A stretch of DNA of 64,000 bases from a bacterium (GTDB taxonomy: Bacteria; Patescibacteriota; Dojkabacteria; JAKAPS01; JAJZLI01): assembly GCA_021810605.1 (NCBI GenBank), contig JAJZIL010000001.1, positions 604-64,603 on the forward strand, written 5' to 3'. Shown one piece after another: positions 155 through 36,022 of this stretch. Every line of letters starts with the position of its first letter. Positions within the stretch are counted from its first letter, which is position 1. The notes below the pieces were generated by a model. That model was not told where the DNA came from, made no database searches, and saw only the letters and a program-made list of their open reading frames with translations. A program made the position numbers and the translations under genes.

Positions 155-496
155 TTATATATTTGAGAGATTGAATCTTAATGTAGTACCATTTATGAAG
201 TTTGTTGAAAAACTATTATTTGCAACAAAACTTCCAATAAATACAATTACTATATATGCCATAACTATAACTACTAAACCTAGTACTGCATACATTAATC
301 CCTGTTGTGCTTTCTGTTTTAATTCAGGATTGACACCACTAAATAAATACCTAATACCATTCCAGATTATCACTATAAATAAGACTAAAGTAATAAAATC
401 ATAAAGAAGACCTATTACTATTCCGAAATATCCTACTAATTGATATAAATGTGGAGTAGATGCTTGATTAATAGGAATATTATTATTTGCTGACAT
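155..496 (-). CDS. small membrane protein with VirB2/TrbC-like two-helix pilin module (paralog 1 of 5)
   Basis: 113 aa. Hydrophobic helix, then a short loop (SGVNPELKQKAQQ), then a second hydrophobic helix. The motif [IV]SGI[RK]x(5-8)EKxxKAQxx[LI]xxAIxGLxxI is shared with the four ORFs downstream. Confidence 0.45.
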   Translation of the reverse strand: MSANNNIPINQASTPHLYQLVGYFGIVIGLLYDFITLVLFIVIIWNGIRYLFSGVNPELKQKAQQGLMYAVLGLVVIVMAYIVIVFIGSFVANNSFSTNFINGTTLRFNLSNI

Positions 497-498
497 AA

Positions 499-1011
499 TT
501 ATTTAATACTACAATTAGAGCTTATTGGATTACTTGTAAATAGGGATCCTCCTACACCTAAAACACTTGTAACTATCTCAACTATCAAAAATGATCCAGC
601 TACAATGACAATCCCAAGTATTGCATGAATTATTGCAGTTTGAGCAGATGCGATTTTTTCTTTATCTCCTCCTGCAGTAATAATTTTAATTCCAGATAAG
701 ATTAGCATTACAAAAAAGGCTAATCCAGCTACAGAAAATAAGCCTACTATTATAGTACTTATAGTAGTTGATATTGAAGAACAACTACTAGGGATATTAC
801 TTGATGGTAAAAAATTACAATTACCTCCGCTAGGATTTCCTCCTAAAATAGTACAAGAACTTCCTCCTACAGATGTAGTAGATATAGTTTGTCTTGAAGA
901 TTGTATTCCTGTCTCAACTTTAGAGACTGCCATTGCATAATTAGGAGTTTTTAGGATAAAAACAAAAGTGAATAGGATCGCAAATACAAATAAAAAATTT
1001 TTTATCTTCAT
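499..1011 (-). CDS. secreted/membrane VirB2/TrbC-like pilin-family protein (paralog 2)
   Basis: 170 aa. N-terminal signal-like segment and a Cys/Ser/Thr-rich variable region. C-terminal TM - AGGDKEKIASAQTAI - TM module. Confidence 0.5.
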   Translation of the reverse strand: MKIKNFLFVFAILFTFVFILKTPNYAMAVSKVETGIQSSRQTISTTSVGGSSCTILGGNPSGGNCNFLPSSNIPSSCSSISTTISTIIVGLFSVAGLAFFVMLILSGIKIITAGGDKEKIASAQTAIIHAILGIVIVAGSFLIVEIVTSVLGVGGSLFTSNPISSNCSIK

Positions 1012-21690: not shown

Positions 21691-22794
21691 ATGAAAAAGA
21701 TTTTATTTGTATATGATGTCATATACCCATATCAATTAGGTGGTGCTGAAAAAAGAATACATTCTATATCAAAATATATAAAGAAAGATTTTGATGTAAG
21801 TATTATAGGTATGAGGAAAAATGGAATGGTAGATCATTTTGATAAAAATAAAATACATTACTATACACTTACAAAATATAGTAATTTATATGACTCAAAA
21901 GGAAAAAGAAAGATTTATTTAAGTATAAGATTTGCAATTGATCTATATTTTTTCCTTTTAAAAAATAACTTCGATATAATCGATGCTACAGCAAATCCAT
22001 ATTTCCATATATTTGCAATAAAATTAGCACTCATCAATAAAAGAAACTCAAAATTCTTTGTAACCTGGCATGAATACTGGGATAAAAAATATTGGATACA
22101 ATACTCTTCCCCAATTGTAGGAAGAATCGGTTTTATAATTCAAAATCTAGCATTAAAATTTTCAGAAAATATCATCTCTGGAAGTAATTTTACAAAAAAA
22201 AAATTAGAAAAAAAAACAAAAAAGAATATTCAACTAATTTCAAATGGAATTGAAGATATAAAAATAAATAAAAGTAAAAAAATTTATGATATTGTTTATA
22301 CAGGAAGAATAATTGATTTTAAAAATATTGATAAAATATTAAAACTTTTGAATATTTCCCCAAATCTAAATATATTAATTATAGGAGATGGCCCAGAATT
22401 AAAAAAATATAAAGAAGAATATAACAATAAAAATATAACATATACAGGATTTCTAAAAAAAGATATTGAAGTATATAGATATTTATCTCAATCTAAAATA
22501 TTCATGATACTTTCTGAAAGAGAAGGATTCTCAATATCAACCATAGAAGCAATGAATATTGGACTTCCTGTTATATGTTATAAAGGAGAGAATAATGCTG
22601 CAAAAGAGCTTATTGATAATAATAAAAATGGTATATTAGTAAATCTTAATTTAGAAGATATAAATAAATCTATTATTGATATAAATAATAACTATAAATT
22701 TTATTCCCAAAATGCAAAAAAAACTTCAAATAAATATTTATATTCAAATATTAGTAAAGACTATATTGATTTTATAAATACTAATTCAAAATAA
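21691..22794 (+). CDS. glycosyltransferase family 1 (GT4)
   Basis: 367 aa. YPYQLGGAEKRI at the N-terminus. C-terminal EREGFSISTIEAMNIGLPVI ... NGILVN matches the E-x7-E region of GT4. Confidence 0.75.
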   Translation: MKKILFVYDVIYPYQLGGAEKRIHSISKYIKKDFDVSIIGMRKNGMVDHFDKNKIHYYTLTKYSNLYDSKGKRKIYLSIRFAIDLYFFLLKNNFDIIDATANPYFHIFAIKLALINKRNSKFFVTWHEYWDKKYWIQYSSPIVGRIGFIIQNLALKFSENIISGSNFTKKKLEKKTKKNIQLISNGIEDIKINKSKKIYDIVYTGRIIDFKNIDKILKLLNISPNLNILIIGDGPELKKYKEEYNNKNITYTGFLKKDIEVYRYLSQSKIFMILSEREGFSISTIEAMNIGLPVICYKGENNAAKELIDNNKNGILVNLNLEDINKSIIDINNNYKFYSQNAKKTSNKYLYSNISKDYIDFINTNSK

Positions 22795-23152
22795 ATGAAT
22801 AAAAGATATTATCCCTAATATAAAAATAAAGATAATAAATAATACTATCAAAAAACAAGAAAAGCACCCTAAAAACCCATATGAAGAATATATTTTTTTA
22901 GTATTACCTATTGTATATACCTGTACATTCTGACTATTTATCATGATATATCAAGACAATAATCTATTATACTATAAAATTCTTTTAATTTTAGGAATAT
23001 ATATAAATATCAATAACTTCCATATTCAAAAGTTCAACCTGAATTATAATAGTAACATTAAATATTTATAAAGAAATTTTATCTAATTATTAATATTTTC
23101 TATACTGTAGATCTTATTTATAAAAAATAATATATGTTTTATAATCAAGAGA

Positions 23153-24067
23153 ATGGAAAATCAGGCAAAATATAAAAAGTTTATAGAGAGAATAAATTCA
23201 AATTGGGCTAATTTCACAGAAAAAAGAAAATCTCTTCTCATACAACAAGAAAGATTTGGAAAAGTTCCTGAGAAAATTACAGAAAATATTATATTTCATC
23301 TATTTACAGAAGTACTAGATTGGAACATTAAAGATATTAACTATCAGATAGATTATGCTGATATAGAAATAACAAAATTAGGTATAAAAAGAATATTAAT
23401 AGAAACAAAAAGACCTGGAGGAATAATATGGGATCAGTTCAAAATAGAAAAACATATTAATCAAGCACTCAGATATGCATATGCACAAAAAGTATCAGTT
23501 ATAGGTATATCTGATGGAGAGAAGCTATATATTCTAAATGTTAAAGGAGGGTTAATTGAACCTCGCATATTTATATCTCTAGACACAGAGACTCCTAATG
23601 AAGATTTATATTATATAAGTGTAAATGGAATAGATAAAAAGAAAAATATAGATATAGATTTAAAAAATAATCAAAAAGAAAGTCTCATAAAAGATACAGA
23701 AAAAGTTATTAATAATGAGCTTCTAAATACTCAATATAATCTCCCAGCACGTTGTTTTGCATACATAGGAAATCCTAATAAACCTACAACATGGAAACTT
23801 CCTTATTTATTGGAAGATGGATCAGTAAATATTAAAAGATTACCTGGAGCAGTACAATGTGTAGTTACAAATTTTAGAGGTCTACAAGTAAAAACTATAC
23901 CCGAGAAGGATATTCCTTCAGTTTTATTGAAATTAGGAAAAGCAGCAAAAAGTGTTGGGAAATTAGATCCAGAAAATCCGAAAATGGCAAATTGCTACAA
24001 ACAATTGTATAATGCTGTAGTTCAACTAGGATATTTAAAATATGAAGAAAATAGCAATATATCATAA
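23153..24067 (+). CDS. stand-alone HsdR-N-like / PD-(D/E)xK nuclease-fold protein
   Basis: 304 aa. IDYADIEI...(13 aa)...ILIETKRPGG matches the D-x(n)-(D/E)xK core and the 'vvEaKrp' signature of the type I restriction enzyme R N-terminal domain. Its end overlaps the next GT gene by 26 nt. Confidence 0.45.
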   Translation: MENQAKYKKFIERINSNWANFTEKRKSLLIQQERFGKVPEKITENIIFHLFTEVLDWNIKDINYQIDYADIEITKLGIKRILIETKRPGGIIWDQFKIEKHINQALRYAYAQKVSVIGISDGEKLYILNVKGGLIEPRIFISLDTETPNEDLYYISVNGIDKKKNIDIDLKNNQKESLIKDTEKVINNELLNTQYNLPARCFAYIGNPNKPTTWKLPYLLEDGSVNIKRLPGAVQCVVTNFRGLQVKTIPEKDIPSVLLKLGKAAKSVGKLDPENPKMANCYKQLYNAVVQLGYLKYEENSNIS

Positions 24068-25184
24068 TTTACCTTCTGGTGGGGCAAAAAGAGCTTTATA
24101 TGAGTATGTGAAGAAATTACATAAAGATTATTATATTGATCTATATACATTATCAACTACTAATGAAGATTTTCTTCCATTAAAATCATTTGTAAATAAT
24201 ATTTTTATATATAAATATAGACACTCTGATGGAATAAAAAGTAGTATTTCAATATTAACAAAATTAAAATTTGTAAATAAAAAAATAGCAAAAAATATTG
24301 ATAGTAACTCATATGAATTTGTATATGTAAATCACTGTCAGTATACTCAATCTCCATATATACTCAGATATCTTAAAACAAAAACTGTATACTATATACA
24401 AGAACCTTTAAGATTAGCTTATGAATTTAATATAAAATATTATCAATATGCAATACTAAAAAAACTTCTCACATATTCAGCTATTAAAGTATTAAAAAAT
24501 ATTGACTTAAAAAATGCAAGGAGTGCAGATAAAGTATTATCTAATTCTTATTATTCATATGAAAGTATTTATAAGGCATATGGGATTGTTAGTAATATAT
24601 GTTATCTAGGAGTAGATACATCACTGTTTAAATTTCTAAATCTAAACCAAAAAAATCAGATAATAATGGTTGGTGCATTATCTCAAGAAAAAGGGCAATT
24701 GTATGTACTAGAAAGTCTTTCATTATTAAAAAAAGAAGAGAGACCATTAATGATAATGGTCGCTAATAGACATAATAAACAATATTATTACGAAATTATA
24801 AAAATTGCAAAAGAATTAGATATAAAAATTAAAATATTAAAAAATATCCCTGATAAAAAGCTTGTAGAATTGTATAATGAATCTATTGCAACAATATGTT
24901 TTGCAAAAGTAGAACCTTTGGGATTAACAGTATTAGAATCTTTTGCATGTGGAACCCCTGTTATTGCTGTAAAGGAAGGAGGCTATAGAGAAACGGTCTT
25001 AAACAATAAAAATGGATACTTAGTAAATAGAAACAGAAAAGAGTTATCTATAGTAATACGAAAATTAGCTAATAATCCTTCACAAAGAAAAAAATTTAGT
25101 AATTATTCAATAGAATATATTAAAAAATATTGGACATGGGATAAAAGCTTTAAAAATTTTAAAAAACTTATTAATGAAAAATAA
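24042..25184 (+). CDS. glycosyltransferase family 1 (GT4)
   Basis: 380 aa. KVEPLGLTVLESFACGTPVIAVKEGG ... NGYLVN. Confidence 0.75.
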   Translation: MKKIAIYHNLPSGGAKRALYEYVKKLHKDYYIDLYTLSTTNEDFLPLKSFVNNIFIYKYRHSDGIKSSISILTKLKFVNKKIAKNIDSNSYEFVYVNHCQYTQSPYILRYLKTKTVYYIQEPLRLAYEFNIKYYQYAILKKLLTYSAIKVLKNIDLKNARSADKVLSNSYYSYESIYKAYGIVSNICYLGVDTSLFKFLNLNQKNQIIMVGALSQEKGQLYVLESLSLLKKEERPLMIMVANRHNKQYYYEIIKIAKELDIKIKILKNIPDKKLVELYNESIATICFAKVEPLGLTVLESFACGTPVIAVKEGGYRETVLNNKNGYLVNRNRKELSIVIRKLANNPSQRKKFSNYSIEYIKKYWTWDKSFKNFKKLINEK

Positions 25185-25191
25185 ATATTCT

Positions 25192-26184
25192 TTATTTTTT
25201 TAAAATCCACTTAATAGGAAATATAGATTTTTCAAAATATTTTAATAGATTTTTATTTTTTACTTTAGAATTTTTCAATATAAATATTCTTTTTTTATAG
25301 ATAAGAGGGATCATCGAAAAAAATCCAATATATGATTTCATTAAAATTCCTAATTTCCACCTTTTTGTATATAAAATACTTAATCCAAATTGCATAATTA
25401 CTATTGGAATAAAATATTTAAACAAAAGATATGTTGGATAATTTTTATATATTGTTAATAAAACATTTCTTGAATGATAGTATCTCGCGAAATCACTTTC
25501 TTCTCCAGCAGTAGTTCCTCTTTTATGGTAAATTATAGATTTTATTTCAAATTTTGGTATATATCCTTTATGTATCAATCTAAATCCTATATCTAGATCT
25601 TCTGAGTACATAAAAAAATCTTCATCAAAATATTCATTATTACAAGAGATATTTTTTAAAGCTTCTGCTCTATACAAAGAACATACCCCTTCAGAACTAA
25701 ATAAATTTTCTTTAAAAATTTTATTTTTTTCCTTATTAAGATTGAGTATTAATGCTATTCCAGATTTATAATAATATATTCCACAACTATCTATTACATT
25801 TCTATTTTTATATTGTAATACTTGTGGCATTATTGATCCTATTTTTTCATTCTTTTCAGCACTATCTACTAGATATTCTAAAAAGCTTCTATCTACTACA
25901 GTATCATTGTTCAATAACAGTACATATTTAGATGTATTTTCCTTTATAATTTCTCTAATAGCAAGATTATTTCCACCTGAAAATCCTAAATTTTTATCAC
26001 TCTGAATTAAATGAATATACTTTCTAAATTTCTTTTTTAATCTCTCTCCTTCATTATTTTTTGAGGCATTATCCACTACAAAAACATCATAATTAGGGTA
26101 TTTTATTTTTTTTAGAGAGTCCAAACATTCGATAGTATCTTCAATACCATTATAATTGATTGTTATTATTGATACTTTAGGCAT
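25192..26184 (-). CDS. glycosyltransferase family 2
   Basis: 330 aa. VSIITINYNGIEDTIECLDSL, NNDT, and C-terminal hydrophobic helices. Confidence 0.8.
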   Translation of the reverse strand: MPKVSIITINYNGIEDTIECLDSLKKIKYPNYDVFVVDNASKNNEGERLKKKFRKYIHLIQSDKNLGFSGGNNLAIREIIKENTSKYVLLLNNDTVVDRSFLEYLVDSAEKNEKIGSIMPQVLQYKNRNVIDSCGIYYYKSGIALILNLNKEKNKIFKENLFSSEGVCSLYRAEALKNISCNNEYFDEDFFMYSEDLDIGFRLIHKGYIPKFEIKSIIYHKRGTTAGEESDFARYYHSRNVLLTIYKNYPTYLLFKYFIPIVIMQFGLSILYTKRWKLGILMKSYIGFFSMIPLIYKKRIFILKNSKVKNKNLLKYFEKSIFPIKWILKK

Positions 26185-27217
26185 GATTTTTATTTAAATT
26201 ATAATACTTTTCAAATGATTCTATAAATTTACCTTTTGTATCAGGATATTCTATTAAATCTCCATTTTTTAATACCTCTTTGTGTGAACATAGATTAAAT
26301 GCTATTGAAGGTTTTCCACAGAACTCAGCTTCAACTATAGGTAAATCAAATCCTTCCCATATACTACACGTTGCATAAAGATTACTCCCTTTATAATAAT
26401 TTGGCAAATCATCATCTTTTATAAACCCAGTAAATATAACATTTTTATTTGCAAGTTTCTGTAATTTTTTAAAATATTCTTGAAATGTTGGTTTTCCAAC
26501 TATTATTAAATATGAGTTTATATATTTTTTATTAAAATTTTTAAAATATTTTATTAATAAATCTACTTTCTTATGAGGAGAGATTCTTCCTACATATAGT
26601 ATAATAAAACTATCTTTTGGTAAGTTGTATTTTTTTCTTATATCTAAATTAGAAGGTTTTTTATTATATCTATCCTTATCTATTTTATCATATATAATTT
26701 TACTACTTCTCCCTGTTTCTTTCTTCAGAATATTTCCTAAATATTTAGAAATTGATATTACTTCATCTGTATTTCCAATACTTATATTATTTAGTATTTT
26801 TATTACTTTTATATATATCTTTTCATAAAATTTTGAGAATGTAATAGTATCTGCAACTCCATGGTTATAATAAATATATTTTAAATTAGGATTTCTCTTT
26901 TTTGCAAAATAAGCAATAACATTCATTGGATAAAAATGACTATATACAATATCATAAGATGATATAATTTTTGAATACTTAGAAATTGTAAAAATATCTA
27001 GAAAAAATAAAAGTCTATATATTCTTTCAAATAAAAGATTCTTAAAAATTTTTATTTCATATATCTTTATCTGTGTATCTTCTAATTTTATATCTCCATA
27101 TAAACAATAGATATTTACATCACTACCTTTTTTACTTAATTCTAAAGCTTGAGTCTCTACAACTCTATCAATTCCACTAAATTTAGAAAAAGTTGGAGTT
27201 AATATTGCTATTTTCAT
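26177..27217 (-). CDS. glycosyltransferase family 1 (GT4)
   Basis: 346 aa. MKIAILTPTFSKFSGIDRV and EGFDLPIVEAEFCGKPSIA. Confidence 0.75.
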   Translation of the reverse strand: MKIAILTPTFSKFSGIDRVVETQALELSKKGSDVNIYCLYGDIKLEDTQIKIYEIKIFKNLLFERIYRLLFFLDIFTISKYSKIISSYDIVYSHFYPMNVIAYFAKKRNPNLKYIYYNHGVADTITFSKFYEKIYIKVIKILNNISIGNTDEVISISKYLGNILKKETGRSSKIIYDKIDKDRYNKKPSNLDIRKKYNLPKDSFIILYVGRISPHKKVDLLIKYFKNFNKKYINSYLIIVGKPTFQEYFKKLQKLANKNVIFTGFIKDDDLPNYYKGSNLYATCSIWEGFDLPIVEAEFCGKPSIAFNLCSHKEVLKNGDLIEYPDTKGKFIESFEKYYNLNKNHA

Positions 27218-27285
27218 ATAATAATTATTATATCATTATATTGACTCTAGGTGTCAAAGGAATTATATTAATATTTTATATAGAA

Positions 27286-29832
27286 TTATATATTCCATGA
27301 TATAAACCATTTTATTAAATTCTTCTTATTAAAAGTTAGAGAGTTATCTTCTTTTAATATTTTTTCTGCTAAATTATTTAAAATTTCCTTATCAAAAATT
27401 TCATTATTTTTTAAATTATTTTCTAAATAATTATCCTTCTTTAAAAATTCTATTAGTTTAATTAAACTTTTTTTATCTATAACAAATTTATGTATATATT
27501 TTTTTATATAAATTGAGTTATTTTCTTTCTCTTTTATATCTATAGTAGTAGAATTACCTAACCATAAATATAATGCATAAAAGAAATCTTTAGAATTGTT
27601 ATTTTTAAATGCATTATATTTAGTCTTATCAATAAATGTATTTACTATTTTATTTATTTCTATTCTCATTTCTGGTTTATATAAAAATTGACCACCATTA
27701 TATAAATTAAGGTTATTATATAAAGAAACCATAAAGTAAAAATTATCCTTATTTATAATAGAATAAATATTTTTAAATATATTTATAATTTCATTTTCAC
27801 TAAACATATTTAAAAGATTCTTAATAAAAAATATATATATATTATTATCTTTAGCACTCTCCTGTAATTTCAAAATATTATTACAAATCATTTTGATTAG
27901 ATTTACAGATCCTTCCTTAGTTAACCCCCATTCTGGTATCGCCAACTTATCCATAAAAAGACTTCTATCTTGAAATTTTAGAAAAATATTAAAAATATCT
28001 TTTTCATCACCATTATTTATTAATTCTATATTATATCTAATTTCTCTATTATGTATATCTTTTTTACTTATCTTCATAGTGAAATATCTGTAAAGACTAT
28101 CTTCACTACAGATTCTAGAATTAATACTATCTTTATCTGTATTCTCACTATTAAAAGGAATCAAACCTATATAAATATTAGAATATTCTTTATTTATTAA
28201 AGCTCTATTTTTATCTGCTAAATCGTATATATTCGGGAATAAAAGACAAATTATAGAGAATACATATTCCTTATATTTAATATCAATACTTTCTAATAAA
28301 TGATTTAAATGATCTAATGTTGTTCTCTCAATAAGAGACTTATCTATACCAATAACAGAATAAAGACCTTTTTTATCAATATTTATATAAATATTAGAAT
28401 TCAAATATATATCATCATAAATAGTAAGAAAGAAAGTTTTAAGTATTTCAAGTATAAGGAAATCTGTTAAATAAATATCTTTATTATTAATTCTATTGTC
28501 ATTCTTTTTAGATATTCCAGAAATATCGAAATTCACAAGATTAATATATTTTTTAACTTTCCTCAAATCAGTAAAATAAGATCCAAAATAATTAAAATAT
28601 GCAAAAGAATAATCATCTATTTTCTCATCAAAATATTCATATATTTTTATTAAATTTTTTTCTATATAATCTAATATATATTCAGGAAGAAATTTTGGGA
28701 CAGATTGATCAAATTGAATAAATTTTTCAAGATATAAGGAATCTTTAACTATATCTTGTATTTTTTTATTTACAACATCTTTGTCAAAAGAAAGTATGAA
28801 TAATAATTTTTTAAAATTACTTACAGAGTTTACTAATTTAAAAACATACAGGATATCTTCAGGAGATAATCTATCTATATTATCAATAATAATAATTATC
28901 TTTTGATCTGTTTGTTTAATAATATCACTAATGCTATTTTTTACATTTTGAAAACTTAGATTATTCAATGAAATTTTAATGAAACCAAAAATATTCAATC
29001 CGAGTGAAGATAATGTAGTATATTTAGACAATAATGATTTTAAATTTCTTATAAAATATTTTTCATTAAGAGTAACCTCTATTTCATTATACAGACCATT
29101 TAATATTGCAGTTTTATTCTCATAATTCCATGGATTAAAATCTATAACACTAATATTTTTTTCTTTTTTTTCATTAATTTTCTCTTTTAATAGATTTAGA
29201 ATAGAAGTCTTTCCAGAACCCCATTCTCCATATAAACCGAAAACAAAACTTTCTTCAAATTTAATATTCTTAATTTTATTAAAAATATCCTCAACAAAAT
29301 TTTCTCTTTCAAAAATATCTTTTTTCTTACTCTTAATTGGGTCATCTGATTTAAAGTCAAATAGATTTTCTCTTCTATTTTTATCTTTTTTCTTTTTCCC
29401 CATAATAAGAGGAACCATAAGTCTTATTATAAGTACATATAAAATAATAATATTCTTCTTATATAAAATATATAACAGAATTAATAAACCTCCTCCTAAA
29501 ACATAATCCAACCAATTTATTGGGAAAAAATGTATTATTGATTCCAAATATTTTTTAAAGAAACGCTTAATGCTTATAAAATTATGAATAATAAATAGTA
29601 TGCAACCAAAAATAAAAATTATTATATAAATGTAATATGGGAAAGTAAAAATATATTGATGTATAACTTTACATAACCAATTATAATAAACTTTTCCAAA
29701 CCTATTAGAAATAAATTCAATAATATAAAATAAAAGTACTAAATATATTAAATATACTGTAGAAATATATACGATAAGTTTAATTATATCTTCTTTAAAA
29801 TCCAAATTATTTATAATTCTCCTAATTTTCAT
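27286..29832 (-). CDS. KAP-family P-loop NTPase with N-terminal TM helices
   Basis: 848 aa. FGLYGEWGSGKTSILNLL is the KAP Walker A (GxWGxGKT/S). IIIIIDNIDRLSPEDILYVFKLV is the KAP Walker B/hhhhDDlDR motif. Four TM helices precede the P-loop. Confidence 0.75.
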   Translation of the reverse strand: MKIRRIINNLDFKEDIIKLIVYISTVYLIYLVLLFYIIEFISNRFGKVYYNWLCKVIHQYIFTFPYYIYIIIFIFGCILFIIHNFISIKRFFKKYLESIIHFFPINWLDYVLGGGLLILLYILYKKNIIILYVLIIRLMVPLIMGKKKKDKNRRENLFDFKSDDPIKSKKKDIFERENFVEDIFNKIKNIKFEESFVFGLYGEWGSGKTSILNLLKEKINEKKEKNISVIDFNPWNYENKTAILNGLYNEIEVTLNEKYFIRNLKSLLSKYTTLSSLGLNIFGFIKISLNNLSFQNVKNSISDIIKQTDQKIIIIIDNIDRLSPEDILYVFKLVNSVSNFKKLLFILSFDKDVVNKKIQDIVKDSLYLEKFIQFDQSVPKFLPEYILDYIEKNLIKIYEYFDEKIDDYSFAYFNYFGSYFTDLRKVKKYINLVNFDISGISKKNDNRINNKDIYLTDFLILEILKTFFLTIYDDIYLNSNIYINIDKKGLYSVIGIDKSLIERTTLDHLNHLLESIDIKYKEYVFSIICLLFPNIYDLADKNRALINKEYSNIYIGLIPFNSENTDKDSINSRICSEDSLYRYFTMKISKKDIHNREIRYNIELINNGDEKDIFNIFLKFQDRSLFMDKLAIPEWGLTKEGSVNLIKMICNNILKLQESAKDNNIYIFFIKNLLNMFSENEIINIFKNIYSIINKDNFYFMVSLYNNLNLYNGGQFLYKPEMRIEINKIVNTFIDKTKYNAFKNNNSKDFFYALYLWLGNSTTIDIKEKENNSIYIKKYIHKFVIDKKSLIKLIEFLKKDNYLENNLKNNEIFDKEILNNLAEKILKEDNSLTFNKKNLIKWFISWNI

Positions 29833-29837
29833 ATCTA

Positions 29838-30224
29838 TTAAAATATCCCCTCTAACTTATAATCTAATGTCAGAAATTTATCTGCTATATCTATTAAATA
29901 TGGTGAAATCATTTGTTTTGAATCTAAAGCTGTAAGATAAACATTTCCTCCTTGTTCTTCAATTGCTTCAAATAGGGGGATATAATCTCTATCATTTACC
30001 AGGAATACTGTATTTTGGATTCTATTATTTACTATAGATAATAATGCATCATAGAATAATTTAATATATAATCCTTTTTCTCTTTTTTGAAAATAATACC
30101 TATATTTAGAGTCTAGTTTTTCAAGTTCTGAACCAGGAAACCCTTTCTTAATATTAATCCTATACTCTAGAATTTCCCAATAATCTTTATATCTCGAGGT
30201 TCTAGAGTCTAATATATTAATCAT
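29838..30224 (-). CDS. NYN/LabA-like nuclease domain, C-terminal portion
   Basis: 128 aa. TVFLVNDRDYIPLFEAIEEQGGNVYLTAL aligns to the NYN 'vlvSgDsDfvplv..lre.GkkVivv' block, with the DxD retained. Confidence 0.45.
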   Translation of the reverse strand: MINILDSRTSRYKDYWEILEYRINIKKGFPGSELEKLDSKYRYYFQKREKGLYIKLFYDALLSIVNNRIQNTVFLVNDRDYIPLFEAIEEQGGNVYLTALDSKQMISPYLIDIADKFLTLDYKLEGIF

Positions 30225-30427
30225 AAGATGGATCCTATCATCTCCTTTTTAAAGTAGAAATTTGCCCTTATAGATTGATAAATATTCTCCAGCCAAATCT
30301 CAAATAAAGCATTAATTAATTTTGTTATATCTATTTTTTTATTCTTTAACTGTAGTCTTAATTTATAAAGATCATTAATACTTGCACATAAGTGAGGCTC
30401 ATCAATCATTATATATCCTGTATCCAT
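30221..30427 (-). CDS. possible N-terminal portion of the same NYN/LabA-like protein (split by frameshift, or a separate coupled gene)
   Basis: 68 aa. YIMIDEPHL resembles the NYN N-terminal 'vfIDgeNl' strand. ATGA overlap with 29838-30224. Confidence 0.3.
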   Translation of the reverse strand: MDTGYIMIDEPHLCASINDLYKLRLQLKNKKIDITKLINALFEIWLENIYQSIRANFYFKKEMIGSIL

Positions 30428-30696
30428 ATTTTGATTATATTATATAGCTAAAAAAACTGGAACATATAAATATGACTACTCTAATGTAGGAAAAGTACAT
30501 GTAGAAGCCATGCAAAAATTAGCCCAACAAGGATCTGGATTAAATACCTATATCAATGACTATTTAAATGACTATTTAAAAGATAAAAAGGTTTTTCGAA
30601 TAAATTAGCACATAACCAAAACATATATTCAAAGAATAAAAATTCATTTCATATATTTACATATAAATAACTAATTCTCAATTTTATAGATATTTA

Positions 30697-31953
30697 GTGC
30701 AACAAAACTCAAAAAAAGATATAATATTGAGTATGCAAAATATATACACTCTTATAAAAAAATATAAATATCTAGCAATAATTATATTTATATTCATAAT
30801 AATAGAATCTATATGGATAATAACCATACCAACTTTATCAACACCAGATTCCCCATATAAGTTAGATAATATTCAGAATTATGCAAAAGGTATAAAAGCT
30901 CCAATAATTCAAGAGCCATCACCTTTATACTATACAATCACTGGAAATATTGATAAATTATTCATACATACAAGAATCTCTTCACAAGTAAAATTTCTAG
31001 AATTTATATCAGCACTATTTTCTATAATCACTGTAATATTTGCATATAAAATATCTGAGCTATTATTTAATGATAAAAAAATTACAATTATAAATACATT
31101 AACATTAATATTATTCCCTATGTTCTCATATGTAGGAATAATGATTGATTTAGATGCTCTTTTAATATGCCTATATACTGCATTTATATATTATTCGTTG
31201 AAAATTCTAAAAGAAGGTTTAAATAAGAAAAACTTTATAATTATAACGATAATATTATTCCTTGGACTTTTAACAAAACAGAATATGTTTCTAAATATAT
31301 TATTCTATATTGGTATAATATTCTATGAATTATATAGAAAAAGATTGTTAAAATTTTATGTAAAATACATAATAGGTGGAGCATTTATTACATTGTTATT
31401 TTTAATATTTTTCAATACTGGATTTAAGAGTATTGTTATTCCAAGGTTAGAATTATTATTAAATCAAAATAATAGCTACTCCATATTAGATTACACTACT
31501 TATAATTTTCATAGATTTTATAATGGGCTAATTTTCAAATCATTCTGGGGAATTTATGGATATATATTCTATCCTTTACAAAATAGTATATATTTTTTAT
31601 TAGAAATCCTATCTATAGTATCGATTATTGGAATAGTTATAAAAATATATAACTATATAAAAGAAAGAAATATTAATAAATATATAATATATATTATTTT
31701 ACAATTTATTATTACATTCATATTTTTATATTTACTAGATTTCACAAGTGTAAAAGGATATGGAGGTTACTTTGTTCAAGGTAGATATTTTTTTCCTATA
31801 ATATCATTACTAATCATAGGATTTATTTCAGGATTAAAAATGTTTATACCAAAGAGATATTATGACCAATTCTACTTTATACTTATAGCATTAATGCTCT
31901 TGTTTAATGCATATTCTATATTTATGATAAATTACAAATTTTTTGCAATATGA
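30697..31953 (+). CDS. polytopic membrane protein, GT-C-fold glycosyltransferase-like (PMT_2/ArnT-like)
   Basis: 418 aa with about 11 TM helices. First extracytoplasmic loop is LSTPDSPYKLDNIQNYAKG. Sits in the GT island alongside two polyprenyl-P-sugar synthases. Confidence 0.45.
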   Translation: MQQNSKKDIILSMQNIYTLIKKYKYLAIIIFIFIIIESIWIITIPTLSTPDSPYKLDNIQNYAKGIKAPIIQEPSPLYYTITGNIDKLFIHTRISSQVKFLEFISALFSIITVIFAYKISELLFNDKKITIINTLTLILFPMFSYVGIMIDLDALLICLYTAFIYYSLKILKEGLNKKNFIIITIILFLGLLTKQNMFLNILFYIGIIFYELYRKRLLKFYVKYIIGGAFITLLFLIFFNTGFKSIVIPRLELLLNQNNSYSILDYTTYNFHRFYNGLIFKSFWGIYGYIFYPLQNSIYFLLEILSIVSIIGIVIKIYNYIKERNINKYIIYIILQFIITFIFLYLLDFTSVKGYGGYFVQGRYFFPIISLLIIGFISGLKMFIPKRYYDQFYFILIALMLLFNAYSIFMINYKFFAI

Positions 31954-33248
31954 TTAAAGATAGAATAAAAACAATTATAATATTAATATTTACTATAATA
32001 ATAGGAGTTATTATATATTATATGTCTTTAGGATATATCATAAATCTAACTAATCTCACTACCACTAAGGTATTCTCTCAAAATAAAATAACATTAAGTC
32101 CTTTTGGCCCAATTACAAATACTGAAAGAGTAAATCAATATTTTAAAGCAGAACATAATAATCTTTCATCTCTAGGAGTTGATATAGGAACATATAATAA
32201 GAAACTTCTAGGAGTTAGTTGTTTTACCATTCGAAATATTACAAAAAATGTCACTTTTTATAATAAATGTTTATTGAATACAACATTTGTAAATGATAAA
32301 TATTATACATTAAATTTCCCAATACAAAAGGAAATCAAAGGGAATAATATTTTACTTTCAATTACATCTCCAACAAAATCATCTAAAAAAGCGATTGCTC
32401 TATTTACATATAATACGAGTTTAATATCAGGATATAAGTTATATGTAAATCATAAACTACAGAATCAAAATATAGCATTTACTCAAATATATAAAATTAA
32501 TAATAATCTTGTAATCGATGGACTTTCTAATTTAGGTCAAAGAGTTCCATATAATCCTATATTAAAAGGGACTACTTTAAAACAGTATTTTATAACTAAC
32601 CATTCTAATCTTAATTCAATACAAATAGCTATAGGTAATTATGACAGGATAAATAATAGTCTTTTCTGTATTAAATTAAAAAATATTACACAAAATAATA
32701 TTTTCTATAATAAGTGTATAATCTCTACTAATTTCATCAATAATCAAAATTACACTGTTCAGTTCCCTGAACAGAAAAATATAAAAAATAATAAAATATT
32801 AATAAGTATATTTTCACCTAATGCAACAGCTAATAATGCTGTTACTGTCTTTATGTATAATAATTATTTACCTGGATACCAACTATATTTAAATAATACA
32901 AGACTAAACTATAATATAGATTTTACTCAAGAATATAATCTTAATTATGGATTTTTAAAATCTATTAATATTATATATCATAATCTAGATTCACAAAATC
33001 CATATATTATAAAAGGATATTATATTTATATATTTCTTTTTATCTATCCTATTGTCTTTACAATATTAATATTTTTACTCGAATCTTATCTTTTAAAAGA
33101 TAAGAGTATTAAAAATATTATTTTGACAAATATTGTTTTATTACTTATATTTTGGATGATCATATACTACAATAATAATCTTCAAGACTTAATAATTGGG
33201 TGTTACAATTCTCAATGTGTTGGAACAACTATATCTTCAGGATTTTAG
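31950..33248 (+). CDS. membrane protein with N-terminal anchor, internally duplicated ~120-aa extracytoplasmic domain and C-terminal TM helices
   Basis: 432 aa. KQYFKAEHNNLSSLGVDIGTYNKK...FYNKCLLNTTF... aligns to KQYFITNHSNLNSIQIAIGNYDRI...FYNKCIISTNF... ATGA overlap with the upstream GT-C-like gene. Confidence 0.5.
   Translation: MIKDRIKTIIILIFTIIIGVIIYYMSLGYIINLTNLTTTKVFSQNKITLSPFGPITNTERVNQYFKAEHNNLSSLGVDIGTYNKKLLGVSCFTIRNITKNVTFYNKCLLNTTFVNDKYYTLNFPIQKEIKGNNILLSITSPTKSSKKAIALFTYNTSLISGYKLYVNHKLQNQNIAFTQIYKINNNLVIDGLSNLGQRVPYNPILKGTTLKQYFITNHSNLNSIQIAIGNYDRINNSLFCIKLKNITQNNIFYNKCIISTNFINNQNYTVQFPEQKNIKNNKILISIFSPNATANNAVTVFMYNNYLPGYQLYLNNTRLNYNIDFTQEYNLNYGFLKSINIIYHNLDSQNPYIIKGYYIYIFLFIYPIVFTILIFLLESYLLKDKSIKNIILTNIVLLLIFWMIIYYNNNLQDLIIGCYNSQCVGTTISSGF
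32130..32940 (+). repeat. intragenic tandem duplication (~360-nt unit, protein-level ~35-40% identity) inside 31950-33248
   Basis: Two about 120-aa segments, each with the conserved blocks KQYF..H.NL.S, FYNKC, and N..L.S...SP. Confidence 0.5.
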
Positions 33249-33378
33249 ATAATATATTAAGGCTTAGAAAAGAAAAAATTCAGTTATATTTTATATAGAA
33301 TCTCATTAGTATTTTTATATTTTATTAGAAATTAGATTGATAATTTTATCTAAAAATCATAAATAAATATATATACTT

Positions 33379-35523
33379 TTAACCATGAAAGGTTTTCTTT
33401 ATCTCTAAAAGTATTTCTGATAATTTTTTTGATCTCTCTTCTATAGTATATCTATTGATTACATCTATATAAGCATTTTCCCCCATTTTTTTCCTCAATC
33501 TTGCATCTAAAATTAATTTTTCTAAAGCATTACTCCAATCTTCTGTATTTTTTGCTAAAAATCCTGTTTTCCCTTGTTTTATTGCATATCTAAAAGATGG
33601 TAATTCTGAAGCTATTGTTGGAACCCTGACTAAAGCTGATTCGAAATATTTTAATTCTGATTTTGCTTCACAAAAAATATTATTTTCTAGAGGGGATAAA
33701 TTAATATCAAATCTTGCCAACCAGAAAGGAAGTTCTTTCCAACTTAAAAATGGAACTTTTATTATTCTTTTATTATATTTTTCTAATTCACTACTTATAT
33801 CTAATTCTCCAATTATTACTAAATGAACATTTTTATATTTTTTAAAAATATAAAAAAGACTTTCATTAATTACAGAGAAATCCTCATTATGAGTTTTACT
33901 ACCACTTGCATAACCTATTATTATATATTCATTTGATCTTTTATAGGAAGATATTTCTTTAAAAGCTTTCTCTGAATAAAATATAATTTCTTCTCCTATT
34001 GCGTTTCTATTAATAAATACTTTCTTTTGAGGAAAATTTTTAAGTATTTGGTCTTTTAAAGAATCTGTTGAAGTTAATATATAATCAGATTGATTCATAA
34101 CATATCTATATCTATTATATAACTCTATATCATAAAAACGGGTTAAATTATCTAAAACAGAAAGCCCTTTCCTATGAGATATATATTTTGTATTAAAAAT
34201 TAAATCATCTATATCATAAATTATAGGAATCTTACCTTTAACCTTATCTAAAAGTAAATTAATTTTTTCATTTATTGGAACCCTTTGAAGTACAATAAAA
34301 TCATATTTATAAATATCATCTTCTAATTTTTCAGAAAGTATTTCATTTTCAAAAAAAATTATTTGACAATTATACTCTAATTTTTCAAACTGTTCTTTGA
34401 GAAAAAGTGCTCTATACCTATATGTATCTCCATATCCTCCATTTATTATTAAACATGAACCTATATATTTTTTTTCTGAAGGTTTATCTAAAATGTTAAA
34501 TATATTCTTAACTGCATTATATTTTAAATATAGTTTCCAAGTTAAGGAAGATTGTATATTTTTTAAATGATTAGTTTGAATATTTAAAGATTTATTTAGA
34601 TCAGTAATATAATCTTCTTTATCTTTAAGTACTAATTTTAAGTTTCTATTTTCATTAATACTACCTATCAAAGAAAGATTTAGAGTACTTACTTTTTTAT
34701 TAATTTCATTAATGATATCTATTTCTTCATTCTTCAAATTTTCTACAGAAAGAATATTTAAAATTAGATTATAGAGAATTTTATTGAAATCTTTATCTTT
34801 ATTGTTTAAAAATTTTTTTAGATTAAAATTATCTCCATACATCATACTTAATCTATCTTTAAAAGGTTTAAATTTTAAAGCTTTATTCAATATAATATCA
34901 ATATTCGAAAAATTTAAAGCATGAGGAATAATATTAGATAAATTTAGGAAAGGATCTATATAATAATTATATTCATTAAAAATTGAAATCCAATATTCTG
35001 GATTTTGTACATTTACATGAGTCTTTTCTGTATAATCATCAGGAGTTGATGAGAAGAATATATTGCCAGCTAATTTAGTAAGATTCAGAACAGCTTTTTT
35101 TGAAAATTCTTGAGGAATATGCTCTAAAACCTCTATACAGCTAACACAATCATATTTCCCTAATTTTTCAATTTGAATATCTTCGAGAATAGATATATTC
35201 TTACAATATTGTTTTATATCAGATCTAATTGTAGAAAGTGCATATTTTGAAACCTCTATTCCATAAGCTTCAATACCTTTATCTCGTAGCATTTCTACCA
35301 AAAAACCTTTCGCACAACCTACATCTATAGTTTTTTGTGGATTAAAATTATTAATTATTTCATCAGAAAGGGTATCAAAATATGAAAACCAATTTTTATT
35401 CTGTAATGAATATTTTTTATCATATCCATTTTTTTTATCAACACTACATCCTCCTCCATCATAATACTCTTTATCATATTCCTGAGTATATTCATCTAAA
35501 TTTTTATAGGTATCTTTTGACAT
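33379..35523 (-). CDS. bifunctional class I SAM-dependent methyltransferase / GT4 glycosyltransferase
   Basis: 714 aa. N-terminal DVGCAKGFLVEML (motif I) and DCVSCIEVLEHI (motif II-III). C-terminal EAKSELKYFESALVRVPTIASE...GKTGFL is GT4-like. Confidence 0.75.
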   Translation of the reverse strand: MSKDTYKNLDEYTQEYDKEYYDGGGCSVDKKNGYDKKYSLQNKNWFSYFDTLSDEIINNFNPQKTIDVGCAKGFLVEMLRDKGIEAYGIEVSKYALSTIRSDIKQYCKNISILEDIQIEKLGKYDCVSCIEVLEHIPQEFSKKAVLNLTKLAGNIFFSSTPDDYTEKTHVNVQNPEYWISIFNEYNYYIDPFLNLSNIIPHALNFSNIDIILNKALKFKPFKDRLSMMYGDNFNLKKFLNNKDKDFNKILYNLILNILSVENLKNEEIDIINEINKKVSTLNLSLIGSINENRNLKLVLKDKEDYITDLNKSLNIQTNHLKNIQSSLTWKLYLKYNAVKNIFNILDKPSEKKYIGSCLIINGGYGDTYRYRALFLKEQFEKLEYNCQIIFFENEILSEKLEDDIYKYDFIVLQRVPINEKINLLLDKVKGKIPIIYDIDDLIFNTKYISHRKGLSVLDNLTRFYDIELYNRYRYVMNQSDYILTSTDSLKDQILKNFPQKKVFINRNAIGEEIIFYSEKAFKEISSYKRSNEYIIIGYASGSKTHNEDFSVINESLFYIFKKYKNVHLVIIGELDISSELEKYNKRIIKVPFLSWKELPFWLARFDINLSPLENNIFCEAKSELKYFESALVRVPTIASELPSFRYAIKQGKTGFLAKNTEDWSNALEKLILDARLRKKMGENAYIDVINRYTIEERSKKLSEILLEIKKTFHG

Positions 35524-35759
35524 ATATTTTGAGATAATTACCTTATTAATATATAGTTACGATTAAAACTAAATCTTATAAAATTAAATCAACATCATTA
35601 TAAGCTATTTTTTAAATTTCATCAAAAAATATTATATATTATTTGATAAGAATAATATATAATACAATGAAAATCTAAAACAAAATTTTTGTGGAGTAAT
35701 TTTTAAAAAATTAATTTATCAATAAATATAAATATTTAATAGCAATATTGTGTGTATTT

Positions 35760-35960
35760 TTTATTATTAAACTCCTCTGGATTATAATAAGTCCTATATA
35801 CCCACCTTTATCTACACCAGATGAAATAACCAGATTTACTAGGATTCAAAATTATGTAAAAGGAGAACATCTCCTTTATACTATTTTGTTATATCAAATA
35901 TAGATAAATTATTTATACATACTAGGGTATATTCCCAATTTAAAATATTAGAATACTCTG
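35760..35960 (+). pseudogene. decayed N-terminal fragment of a paralog of the GT-C-like gene at 30697
   Basis: Translates to FIIKLLWIIISPIYPPLSTPDEITRFTRIQNYVKGEHLLYTILLYQI-stop, then DKLFIHTR in another frame. This parallels IIESIWIITIPTLSTPDSPYKLDNIQNYAKG...LYYTITGNIDKLFIHTR of 30697. A stop and a frameshift are present. Confidence 0.5.
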
Positions 35961-36022
35961 GAAAAATGAGTCAGAAAGTTAATACCAGAACTTCATATAT
36001 AACTACAGTTATAAAATAGTAT

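What the first reader, a model, noticed from the sequence alone, without database searches (positions are those of the whole stretch)
27286..30427. KAP-family P-loop NTPase next to a (possibly split) NYN/LabA nuclease: candidate two-component conflict/defence module inserted in the GT cluster
The 848-aa protein has the Walker A GEWGSGKTS and Walker B IIIIIDNIDR of KAP NTPases, a family with membrane-embedded P-loop domains that is enriched in mobile or defence contexts. It follows four TM helices. Directly upstream in the same orientation is a NYN/LabA PIN-like nuclease domain: YIMIDEPHL, then about 135 aa later FLVNDRDY with the DxD retained. It is encoded as two ORFs (68 aa and 128 aa) joined by an ATGA overlap. 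That may be a frameshift pseudogene, a programmed frameshift, or two coupled genes. NTPase-plus-nuclease pairs are a recurrent architecture of anti-phage systems. I am not aware of this specific pairing being described. Its insertion between GT genes and the divergent promoter region 30428-30696 looks like an accessory acquisition.
Basis: partly seen in the sequence, partly recalled or inferred. Interest (0 to 1): 0.8.

Follow-up and report, generated by a model that had tools for sequence, protein, structure and literature searches.

The report
Membrane-anchored PifA-like NTPase beside dead nuclease gene
The window carries an intact, membrane-anchored relative of the classic phage-exclusion protein PifA, but the nuclease gene next to it is a decayed pseudogene, so this is a probable single-gene phage defence beside a relic and not a new two-part system.

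Summary
An 848-aa KAP P-loop NTPase (27286-29832, minus strand) with four N-terminal TM helices lies 5 nt downstream of a NYN-nuclease gene split into 68- and 128-aa ORFs.

The KAP protein is an end-to-end homologue of F-plasmid PifA (hhalign E 2e-40, residues 162-841) with an added membrane anchor. It keeps all conserved family positions, so it looks functional.

The NYN gene is a pseudogene. It has a 1-nt deletion in an A6 run (now A5, 30246-30250), identical in four independent assemblies. It also has 12 substitutions at 61 near-invariant positions, including Asp121 to Tyr, and evolves about 5-fold faster than its intact orthologue (22 vs 4 unique changes, p = 5e-4).

The pairing is not recurrent. 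It occurs only in one small Patescibacteria clade: an intact 190-aa NYN plus KAP in a 51%-identical relative, at the same position in a variable glycosyltransferase locus. None of 80 other KAP loci has this NYN, and none of 11 other NYN loci has a KAP. Elsewhere this NYN subfamily follows a 98-aa GIY-YIG-like gene beside restriction-modification genes. A sister strain also has a stop codon in the KAP Walker A motif.

Verdict: a new member of a known defence family plus a relic.

The parts
27286..29832 (-). Intact 848-aa PifA-family KAP P-loop NTPase gene
   Evidence: Pfam KAP_NTPase 1.9e-36. PADLOC PifA 6.9e-48. hhalign to F-plasmid PifA E 2.2e-40. Deviates at only 6 of 41 conserved columns, all conservatively.
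29392..29790 (-). N-terminal membrane anchor, about four TM helices (residues 15-147)
   Evidence: Kyte-Doolittle segments. AF2 helices 15-44, 46-61, 66-102, 107-124 and 129-144. The same 4-5 TM extension occurs in 13 of 80 KAP relatives. It is absent from PifA, whose alignment starts at PifA residue 13 opposite window residue 162.
29203..29229 (-). Walker A motif GEWGSGKTS (residues 202-210)
   Evidence: G205, G207, K208 and T209 are invariant in alignment A2.
28870..28899 (-). Walker B motif IIIIIDNIDR (residues 312-321)
   Evidence: D317 and R321 are invariant in A2.
27310..29349 (-). Region homologous end-to-end to F-plasmid PifA (residues 162-841): P-loop core plus all-alpha C-terminal region
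   Evidence: hhalign aligns 654 columns, matching PifA 13-734 of 741. AF2 shows an alpha/beta core at 177-440 and helices only at 455-845.
29838..30427 (-). NYN (LabA-like, PIN-fold) nuclease pseudogene, read as 68-aa and 128-aa ORFs
30246..30250 (-). Frameshift site: A5 run, where intact relatives have A6 (TTT AAA AAA GGx GAT)
   Evidence: Codon-level comparison of the window and L007 with L004 and L022.
30066..30077 (-). KGLY in place of the near-invariant KG(L/V)D: loss of Asp121, the predicted active-site Asp at a helix N-terminus
   Evidence: Alignment A1. Position in the model's helix 120-133.
30435..30608 (+). 57-codon stop-to-stop protein-like frame with no start codon: a gene remnant inside the supposed promoter region
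   Evidence: In L007 it is split across two frames. No Pfam hit.

Best explanation
The KAP gene encodes a PifA-family P-loop NTPase that has gained an N-terminal four-helix membrane anchor.

By analogy with PifA and with KAP NTPases that carry TM helices plus a C-terminal region and were experimentally validated as defences, it most likely acts alone as a membrane-located anti-phage protein. In this model the all-alpha C-terminal region senses a phage product. NTP binding and hydrolysis by the Walker A/B core drive a conformational or oligomeric change. The output is at the membrane, either a permeability/energy lesion or exclusion.

The upstream NYN gene was once an active RNase-type nuclease of a subfamily widespread in candidate-phyla-radiation (CPR) bacteria. 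That subfamily normally sits with a small GIY-YIG-like gene beside restriction-modification systems.

In an ancestor of this Patescibacteria clade, the NYN gene and the KAP gene came to lie together as a small two-gene defence islet inside a hypervariable surface-glycan locus. In the window's lineage the NYN gene then died, through an A6-to-A5 frameshift followed by loss of conserved and catalytic residues. In a sister strain the KAP gene is dying too.

Shown: domain identities, PifA homology, TM anchor, frameshift, decay, and distribution of the pairing. Inferred: the anti-phage function and the mechanism.
For: KAP identity:
- Pfam and PADLOC hits.
- BLASTP against authentic F-plasmid PifA gives 3e-26. 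hhalign gives 100% probability over window residues 162-841.

KAP integrity:
- All invariant positions are kept, and the 6 of 41 deviations at conserved columns are conservative.

Defence context of relatives:
- P0003 lies beside a Type ISP restriction-modification enzyme.
- The 62 co-directional neighbours of the 80 KAP relatives are heterogeneous. The most frequent families are FRG, Type I/III R-M, GmrSD and Eco57I, with single cases of a Pycsar-type TIR and a resolvase. No consistent partner emerges.
- KAP NTPases with TM helices and a C-terminal region of unknown function give up to 6-log phage protection that depends on Walker B (PMC13552941).
- PifA causes membrane depolarisation and nucleotide leakage (PMC13001434).

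NYN pseudogene:
- A6-to-A5 deletion.
- 12 of 61 near-invariant columns changed, against 4 of 57 and 5 of 48 in the closest relatives. Nine of those changes are radical, including D111Y and D121Y.
- Relative-rate test: 22 versus 4 unique changes, p = 5e-4.
- L007 has a second frameshift. L022 has GGA-to-TGA at the invariant Gly160.
- The standard genetic code is verified.

Pairing not recurrent:
-. None of the 113 KAP homologues carries a NYN Pfam domain.

Shared ancestry of the pair:
- An intact NYN plus KAP occurs at the same locus position in L004-L006.

KAP dispensable:
- L007 has TGG-to-TGA at Trp204 of Walker A, with dN eight times that of the flanks downstream of the stop.
Against: - No experiment links this protein or any Patescibacteria KAP to phage defence. 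The function is inferred from homology at about 22% identity.
- The gene sits in a glycosyltransferase cluster in both lineages, not in a classical defence island.
- PifA itself lacks TM helices, and its mechanism is unresolved.
- The validated EF_KAP was reported not to act by abortive infection, so the output step is uncertain.
- The tight spacing and co-orientation of NYN and KAP (5 nt here, 27 nt in L004), retained across about 50% protein divergence, could mean a real functional link in the intact lineage.
Confidence: 0.6

Rival explanations
1. A functional two-component NYN-KAP defence system. The PifA-like sensor NTPase activates the NYN RNase. In this window the NYN is still made, either by programmed -1 ribosomal frameshifting on the A-rich site or as two complementing halves.
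For: The two genes are co-oriented and nearly abutting (5-nt gap; 27 nt in L004). A -1 slip on TTT AAA AAG G would regenerate exactly the ancestral ...FYFKKGDDRIH... sequence. The same frameshift persists in two strains. The NYN subfamily lives in defence contexts.
Against: The window NYN has lost near-invariant residues on both sides of the shift, including Asp111 and Asp121, and evolves about 5-fold faster than the intact orthologue. There is no significant downstream RNA structure (z = -1.6). The heptamer is imperfect (T_AAA_AAG). Relatives with A6 need no shift. L007 adds a second frameshift and L022 a nonsense codon. The pairing is absent from 80 other KAP loci and 11 other NYN loci.
Confidence: 0.1
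2. A housekeeping or regulatory role tied to the glycan locus. The membrane-anchored NTPase organises or regulates the envelope glycosylation machinery, and its resemblance to PifA is only a shared fold.
For: The pair lies at the same relative position next to the DUF2142/PMT_2 membrane protein inside a GT cluster in two lineages. In the window the KAP gene is on the same strand as the downstream GT4 and GT2 genes. KAP NTPases were originally proposed to regulate membrane-associated complexes (cited in PMC13552941).
Against: The KAP carries a nonsense codon in Walker A in a strain whose flanking GT genes are 99% identical and intact. In L004 the downstream GT genes are on the opposite strand, so there is no conserved operon. 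Only 3 Pfam matches among the 62 neighbours of KAP relatives are polysaccharide-related, whereas restriction and defence genes dominate. The nearest relatives outside the clade sit beside a Type ISP R-M enzyme.
Confidence: 0.12
3. The whole module is a non-functional relic. The window KAP is also under relaxed selection and simply has not yet acquired a disabling mutation.
For: The NYN is dead, the sister strain's KAP is dead, and omega between the two strains over the KAP C-terminal part is about 1.3. An adjacent ORF remnant shows that the region accumulates decayed genes.
Against: An 848-codon ORF stays open in DNA of about 20% G+C. All invariant motif residues are retained and only conservative changes occur at conserved columns. 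The exact protein is seen on 12 contigs. The excess dN may lie on the L007 branch, after its stop codon.
Confidence: 0.13
4. The NYN split is an assembly or sequencing homopolymer error, and the gene is intact in reality.
For: The lesion lies in a homopolymer run.
Against: Identical A5 sequence occurs in the window, in three contigs from three independent samples, and in L007. The run is only 5 nt. Independent amino-acid decay at conserved sites cannot be an indel artefact.
Confidence: 0.02

Closest known systems
PifA of the E. coli F plasmid (phage T7 exclusion; KAP family)
   Same: Homologous over essentially the whole PifA length: P-loop core plus all-alpha C-terminal region (hhalign E 2e-40; BLASTP 3e-26; PADLOC PifA model 6.9e-48). 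Like PifA, relatives show no consistent partner gene.
   Different: About 22% identity. Has a ~150-aa N-terminal four-TM anchor that PifA lacks (PMC13001434). No pifC-like repressor is present. The host is a Patescibacteria chromosome, not a conjugative plasmid. Triggers and phenotype are untested.
TM-containing KAP NTPase defence proteins with C-terminal regions of unknown function (EF_KAP class, PLoS Biol 2026, PMC13552941)
   Same: Single polypeptide of TM helix or helices, a KAP P-loop domain and a ~300-400-aa C-terminal region without known domains. Defence in that class depends on Walker B and on the C-terminal region.
   Different: EF_KAP is modelled with two TM helices, one of them inside the KAP domain. 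Here about four helices all precede the domain. No direct sequence comparison with EF_KAP was possible. The C-terminal region here is PifA-like.
QatA of the QatABCD system
   Same: KAP-type P-loop. Weak local matches around Walker A (PADLOC QatA 5.9e-13; NCBIfam QatA 41 bits).
   Different: Far below the NCBIfam equivalog cut-off (41 versus 600 bits). The QatA profile matches reach only about residue 280. The neighbouring genes carry glycosyltransferase, methyltransferase, DUF2142/PMT_2 or no Pfam domains, and none is QatB/C/D-like.
LabA-like / MARF1-type NYN domains (PF01936)
   Different: This is a divergent subfamily: only the C-terminal half scores in Pfam, and no solved structure is detectable by sequence. 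It has an inserted region of about 60 residues (residues 60-118). The window copy is frameshifted and lacks Asp121.
[quoted passage not shown]
   Same: A membrane-anchored P-loop NTPase implicated in phage defence with a membrane-level output (PMC13001434).
   Different: YobI proteins have two TM helices inserted within the P-loop domain after Walker A. Here the helices are N-terminal, and the family assignment is KAP/PifA with no PADLOC Tmn hit.

Membership tests
KAP family P-loop NTPase (PF07693) | Profile match above the curated threshold | tested here: met
   126.3 bits against a cut-off of 20, covering profile positions 1-287 of 293.
KAP family P-loop NTPase (PF07693) | Intact Walker A (GxxGxGK[ST]) and Walker B (hhhhDD/NxDR) | tested here: met
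   GEWGSGKT at residue 202 and IIIIIDNIDR at 312-321. The invariant columns G205, G207, K208, T209, D317 and R321 are all kept.
KAP family P-loop NTPase (PF07693) | Transmembrane helices associated with the NTPase | tested here: met
   About four TM helices at residues 15-147. They are N-terminal to the P-loop domain and not inserted within it.
PifA family (F-plasmid phage exclusion) | Full-length homology to authentic PifA | tested here: met
   hhalign 100% probability, E 2.2e-40, window 162-841 against PifA 13-734. BLASTP 3e-26. PADLOC PifA 6.9e-48.
PifA family (F-plasmid phage exclusion) | pif operon organisation with the PifC repressor upstream | tested here: not met
   tblastn of PifC against the window and L004 gives only a chance hit at E 4.8. 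The upstream gene is the NYN gene.
PifA family (F-plasmid phage exclusion) | Soluble or peripheral protein without TM helices | tested here: not met
   The window protein has a ~150-aa TM extension with no PifA counterpart. PifA is stated to lack TM helices in PMC13001434.
PifA family (F-plasmid phage exclusion) | Exclusion of phage triggered by specific phage proteins, with a membrane permeability lesion | not testable with these tools
   Needs expression and phage challenge.
QatA (QatABCD) | Equivalog-level match and QatB/C/D neighbours | tested here: not met
   NCBIfam QatA scores 41 bits against a cut-off of 600. The neighbours carry glycosyltransferase, methyltransferase, DUF2142/PMT_2 or no Pfam domains.
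NYN domain nuclease (PF01936) | Profile match and PIN-like NYN fold | tested here: met
NYN domain nuclease (PF01936) | Uninterrupted ORF and a complete set of conserved acidic active-site residues | tested here: not met
   An A6-to-A5 frameshift is present. D9, D146 and D148 are kept, but D111 and D121 are replaced by Tyr, alongside seven other radical changes at near-invariant sites. The catalytic role of D121 is inferred from its position at a helix N-terminus in the model and from general knowledge of PIN/NYN active sites.
Two-gene NTPase + nuclease defence system | Recurrent, phylogenetically independent co-occurrence of the two genes | tested here: not met
   The pair is seen only in the window/L007 and L004 lineages at a syntenic site. 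0 of 80 KAP loci have this NYN. 0 of 11 other NYN loci have a KAP. None of 113 KAP homologues is fused to NYN.
Programmed -1 ribosomal frameshift | Canonical slippery heptamer, a downstream stimulatory structure, and conservation of the shift among relatives | tested here: not met
   The site is T_AAA_AAG, which is imperfect. The downstream fold has z = -1.6, with 12 of 200 shuffles as stable. Relatives L004 and L022 are in frame with A6.

The most novel reading that the evidence does not exclude
In the lineage where both genes are intact (L004-L006, Patescibacteria GCA_021809565.1), NYN and the TM-anchored PifA homologue form a genuine, so far undescribed two-gene defence system in which a membrane sensor NTPase licenses an RNase. 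The window preserves its degenerating form.

Related and separately testable: the 98-aa GIY-YIG-like plus NYN cassette that follows diverse R-M modules in CPR genomes is an undescribed defence or R-M accessory module.
Probability: 0.15. Interest if true: 0.55.

Novelty: new member of a known kind. Interest (0 to 1): 0.28.

Why it matters
If the KAP protein is active, it extends the PifA/KAP class of phage-defence NTPases to Patescibacteria, ultra-small episymbiotic bacteria whose immune repertoire is poorly known. It also shows a natural PifA variant in which membrane association is hard-wired by a four-helix anchor, which may help in dissecting how PifA-type proteins act at the membrane.

The locus also gives a clear snapshot of defence-gene turnover: the nuclease dies first and the NTPase next, inside a hypervariable surface-glycan locus. 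Both gene classes are plausibly shaped by phage pressure.

It does not reveal a new type of system.

Tried and rejected
- Alternative genetic code (25 or 4) to explain the in-frame TGA codons in L007 and L022: rejected. TGA ends 9 of the 43 long ORFs in the window, and recoding adds only 4% more residues.
- KTSC-domain identity for the + strand fragment at 30435-30608: no Pfam support. It remains an unidentified remnant.
- A profile search of the NYN subfamily against PDB sequences found nothing.
- Flanking direct or inverted repeats as an insertion signature: only AT-rich chance matches.
- Promoter and terminator scans were uninformative in this 20% G+C DNA: fewer promoter-like sites than in shuffles and no terminators.
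- tblastn of the KAP against plasmids did not reach F-plasmid PifA at 1e-5. Direct pairwise and profile comparisons did.
- Rfam and tRNA scans of the window were empty.
- L022, the third NYN lineage of the KAP-linked clade, ends 163 nt after the NYN gene, so KAP presence there could not be determined.
- Literature search for 'KAP NTPase' together with 'NYN': no paper. Two papers that mention both terms do not link them.
Full report
**Observation.** The minus strand carries, in order:
- a 68-aa ORF (30427-30221);
- a 128-aa ORF (30224-29838) that overlaps it by ATGA;
- after a 5-nt gap, an 848-aa ORF (29832-27286).

The 848-aa protein matches Pfam KAP_NTPase at 1.9e-36. Walker A GEWGSGKTS is at residues 202-210 and Walker B IIIIIDNIDR at residues 312-321. 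Hydropathy analysis and an AlphaFold model (pLDDT 79) both place about four long TM helices at residues 15-147. These helices lie in front of the P-loop domain, not within it. The 128-aa ORF matches only the C-terminal half of Pfam NYN (profile positions 71-145, 4e-9). The 68-aa ORF has no Pfam hit on its own.

**The source organism and the reality of the split.** The exact KAP protein is recorded on 12 contigs. The three places shown come from three independent samples, and each carries NYN-region DNA 100% identical to the window, split included. The closest full-length relative, P0002 (51% identity), comes from a Patescibacteria MAG. The window uses TGA as an ordinary stop codon: it ends 9 of 43 long ORFs, and recoding with code 25 or code 4 adds only 4% more residues. 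The standard code therefore applies.

**What the KAP protein is.** Its best match in the defence library is PifA, at 6.9e-48. I fetched authentic PifA from plasmid F and compared the two directly.
- BLASTP gives 3e-26 over the NTPase core.
- A profile of 40 relatives aligns with PifA at 100% probability, E 2e-40, over 654 columns. This pairs window residues 162-841 with PifA residues 13-734 of 741.

The protein is therefore a PifA homologue over the whole PifA length, with about 150 extra N-terminal residues forming a membrane anchor. No pifC-like gene is present. It is not QatA: the NCBIfam equivalog scores 41 bits against a cut-off of 600.

The AlphaFold model shows an alpha/beta P-loop core (residues 177-440) followed by helices only (455-845), with no second enzymatic domain. 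The nearest solved folds are oligomerising AAA+/STAND-type ATPases: Cdc6/Orc1, the RADAR defence ATPase RdrA, CED-4 and SAMD9. All have low TM-scores, and no solved PifA/KAP structure was found.

The window protein retains every invariant family position. It differs at only 6 of 41 strongly conserved columns, always conservatively, which is within the range of its intact relatives. About half of its relatives share the long N-terminal extension. In 13 of 80 metagenomic KAP loci that extension contains 4-5 hydrophobic helices. TM-anchored PifA-like proteins are thus an established architectural class.

Aligning P0114 with the window locates the lesion exactly. Intact genes read TTT AAA AAA GGx GAT (...FKKGDD...). 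The window and its close strain L007 read TTT AAA AAG GAG ATG. This is a one-base deletion that turns an A6 run into A5 at window 30246-30250.

The frame-repaired window protein departs from the subfamily at 12 of 61 columns that are at least 90% conserved. Nine of these changes are radical: G10E, P78S, G79R, H83Y, C89Y, G90R, D111Y, D121Y and C126Y. Its nearest relatives depart at 4 of 57 and 5 of 48. A relative-rate test against the outgroup consensus gives 22 unique changes in the window lineage against 4 in P0114 (p = 5e-4).

Asp121 lies in the KG(L/V)D motif at the N-terminus of helix 120-133 of the model. This is the position expected for one of the acidic active-site residues of PIN/NYN nucleases. 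That assignment is an inference from the model and from general knowledge of the fold.

Other copies in this clade are also damaged. L007 carries a second frameshift in the NYN N-terminal part. L022, a third lineage at 78% identity to P0114, has GGA-to-TGA at the invariant Gly160.

The programmed-frameshift alternative has one point in its favour. A -1 slip on AAA AAG would regenerate the ancestral peptide. Against it, the heptamer is imperfect, the downstream RNA is no more stable than shuffled sequence (z = -1.6), relatives are in frame, and the residue decay is not compatible with a maintained enzyme. The NYN gene is a pseudogene.

**Is NYN+KAP a system?** The NYN belongs to a tight subfamily: 78 cluster representatives, mostly 200-235 aa and mostly 50-58% identical to P0114. 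The sources that name an organism call it a Patescibacteria-group (CPR) lineage in most cases.
- Of nine genome loci found with the subfamily profile, none has a KAP within 8 kb.
- In six of those nine, and in the two loci of the next-closest relative P0185, the NYN gene is instead directly preceded by a conserved 98-aa GIY-YIG-like ORF. Its Pfam GIY-YIG score of 1.3e-4 sits exactly at the cut-off.
- That ORF in turn follows varied restriction-modification genes: N6_N4 methylase with DUF6996/6997, a D12 methylase, TdeIII endonuclease, and a C5 methylase fused to RadC.
- Conversely, none of 80 metagenomic loci encoding KAP relatives contains this NYN, while positive controls score 1e-58 to 1e-116.
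- None of the 113 KAP homologues carries a NYN Pfam domain.
- The 62 co-directional close neighbours of those KAPs share no dominant family. The most frequent are FRG, Type I/III R-M, GmrSD and Eco57I, with single cases of a Pycsar-type TIR and a resolvase. P0003 lies next to a Type ISP enzyme.

Both genes therefore have defence-island affinities of their own. Their adjacency is restricted to one small Patescibacteria clade and is most simply a single historical juxtaposition. The window keeps the KAP intact while the NYN has decayed, which argues that the KAP does not depend on the NYN.

**Insertion or resident?** Window and L004 share the outer GT2 gene at 80% identity. The inner genes are only 25-48% identical or are not orthologous. 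NYN (71%) and KAP (51%) occupy the same position next to the DUF2142/PMT_2 membrane protein. No flanking repeats or compositional break mark an insertion. The pair is thus an old resident of a hypervariable glycan locus.

It is nevertheless accessory. In strain L007 the flanking GT genes are 99% identical to the window (dN 0.004-0.005). Its KAP, however, has TGG-to-TGA at Trp204 of Walker A. Downstream of that stop, dN is 0.036 with omega about 1.3, whereas the 203 codons upstream differ at only two residues.

The supposed divergent promoter region contains a 57-codon protein-like frame on the + strand with no start codon. In L007 it is broken across two frames, which marks it as another gene remnant.

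**Mechanism (inferred).** PifA excludes phage T7 through membrane depolarisation and nucleotide leakage (PMC13001434). In 2026, KAP NTPases with TM helices and a C-terminal region of unknown function were shown to give up to six logs of phage protection. That protection required both the Walker B motif and the C-terminal region (PMC13552941).

On that basis, the window protein most likely acts as a single-chain sensor-effector at the membrane. The all-alpha PifA-like C-terminal region would recognise a phage cue. The P-loop would drive a nucleotide-dependent switch or oligomerisation. The four-helix anchor would deliver or mediate the membrane output.

Nothing here tests that function. The glycan-locus setting and the low identity to PifA are the main caveats.

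**Comparison and novelty.** The protein passes the sequence tests for KAP membership and for PifA-family homology. It differs from PifA by the TM anchor, the absence of pifC, and its host. It resembles the validated TM-KAP class in layout. No paper I could search links KAP with NYN, but the evidence here does not support that link as a system.

I classify the finding as a new member of a known kind (a PifA/KAP defence NTPase) plus a nuclease pseudogene. The more novel lead lies outside the window: the GIY-YIG-like + NYN cassette beside R-M systems in CPR genomes.

Noticed in passing
L014:7694-8675; also L015-L019, L104, L105: The NYN subfamily is usually preceded directly by a conserved 98-aa GIY-YIG-like ORF (64-75% identity between the two pairs of copies compared). 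Pfam GIY-YIG scores 1.3e-4, exactly at the cut-off. The pair lies downstream of varied restriction-modification genes. PADLOC gives only weak matches to either gene. It may be an undescribed two-gene accessory or defence cassette in CPR bacteria.
   Followed up: partly
window 30435-30608 (+): A 57-codon stop-to-stop frame with protein-like sequence (…GTYKYDYSNVGKVHVEAMQKLAQQGSGLNTYINDYL…) and no start codon, inside the 'divergent promoter' region. It looks KTSC-like by eye but has no Pfam hit. In L007 it is split across two frames, so it is probably a gene remnant.
   Followed up: partly
L007:1310-3886: A sister strain whose flanking GT genes are 99% identical has TGG-to-TGA at the Walker A tryptophan of the KAP gene. 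It has 51 amino-acid differences downstream of that stop (omega about 1.3) but only 2 in the 203 codons upstream. This fits either relaxed selection after the stop or diversifying selection or recombination in the sensor part.
   Followed up: partly
L022:6432-7077: A third NYN lineage of the KAP-linked clade has GGA-to-TGA at the invariant Gly160. It sits next to aminotransferase, methyltransferase and NUDIX genes rather than the GT cluster. The contig ends before any KAP gene could be seen.
   Followed up: partly
window 23153-24067 (+): A 304-aa ORF inside the GT cluster has no significant Pfam, PADLOC or NCBIfam match (only a sub-threshold HTH_56 hit at E 0.077). No counterpart was found in the 22.6 kb of L004 examined. 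The motif …DIEITK…ILIETKRP… looks PD-(D/E)xK-nuclease-like by eye. It may be another accessory or conflict gene in the locus.
   Followed up: no
window 21691-37816 vs L004: The glycosyltransferase locus is hypervariable. The outer GT2 gene is 80% identical between lineages, while the inner GT genes are 25-48% identical or not orthologous. Some L004 GT4 genes hit the Pfam 'GT4-conflict' family. This pattern is reminiscent of surface-glycan diversification under phage pressure.
   Followed up: no
window 31950-33248 (+): A 432-aa ORF downstream of the DUF2142/PMT_2 gene has two similar internal halves by eye (…FTQIYKINNN… / …FTQEYNLNYG…) and a C-terminal TM segment. It has no Pfam or NCBIfam match.
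   Followed up: no
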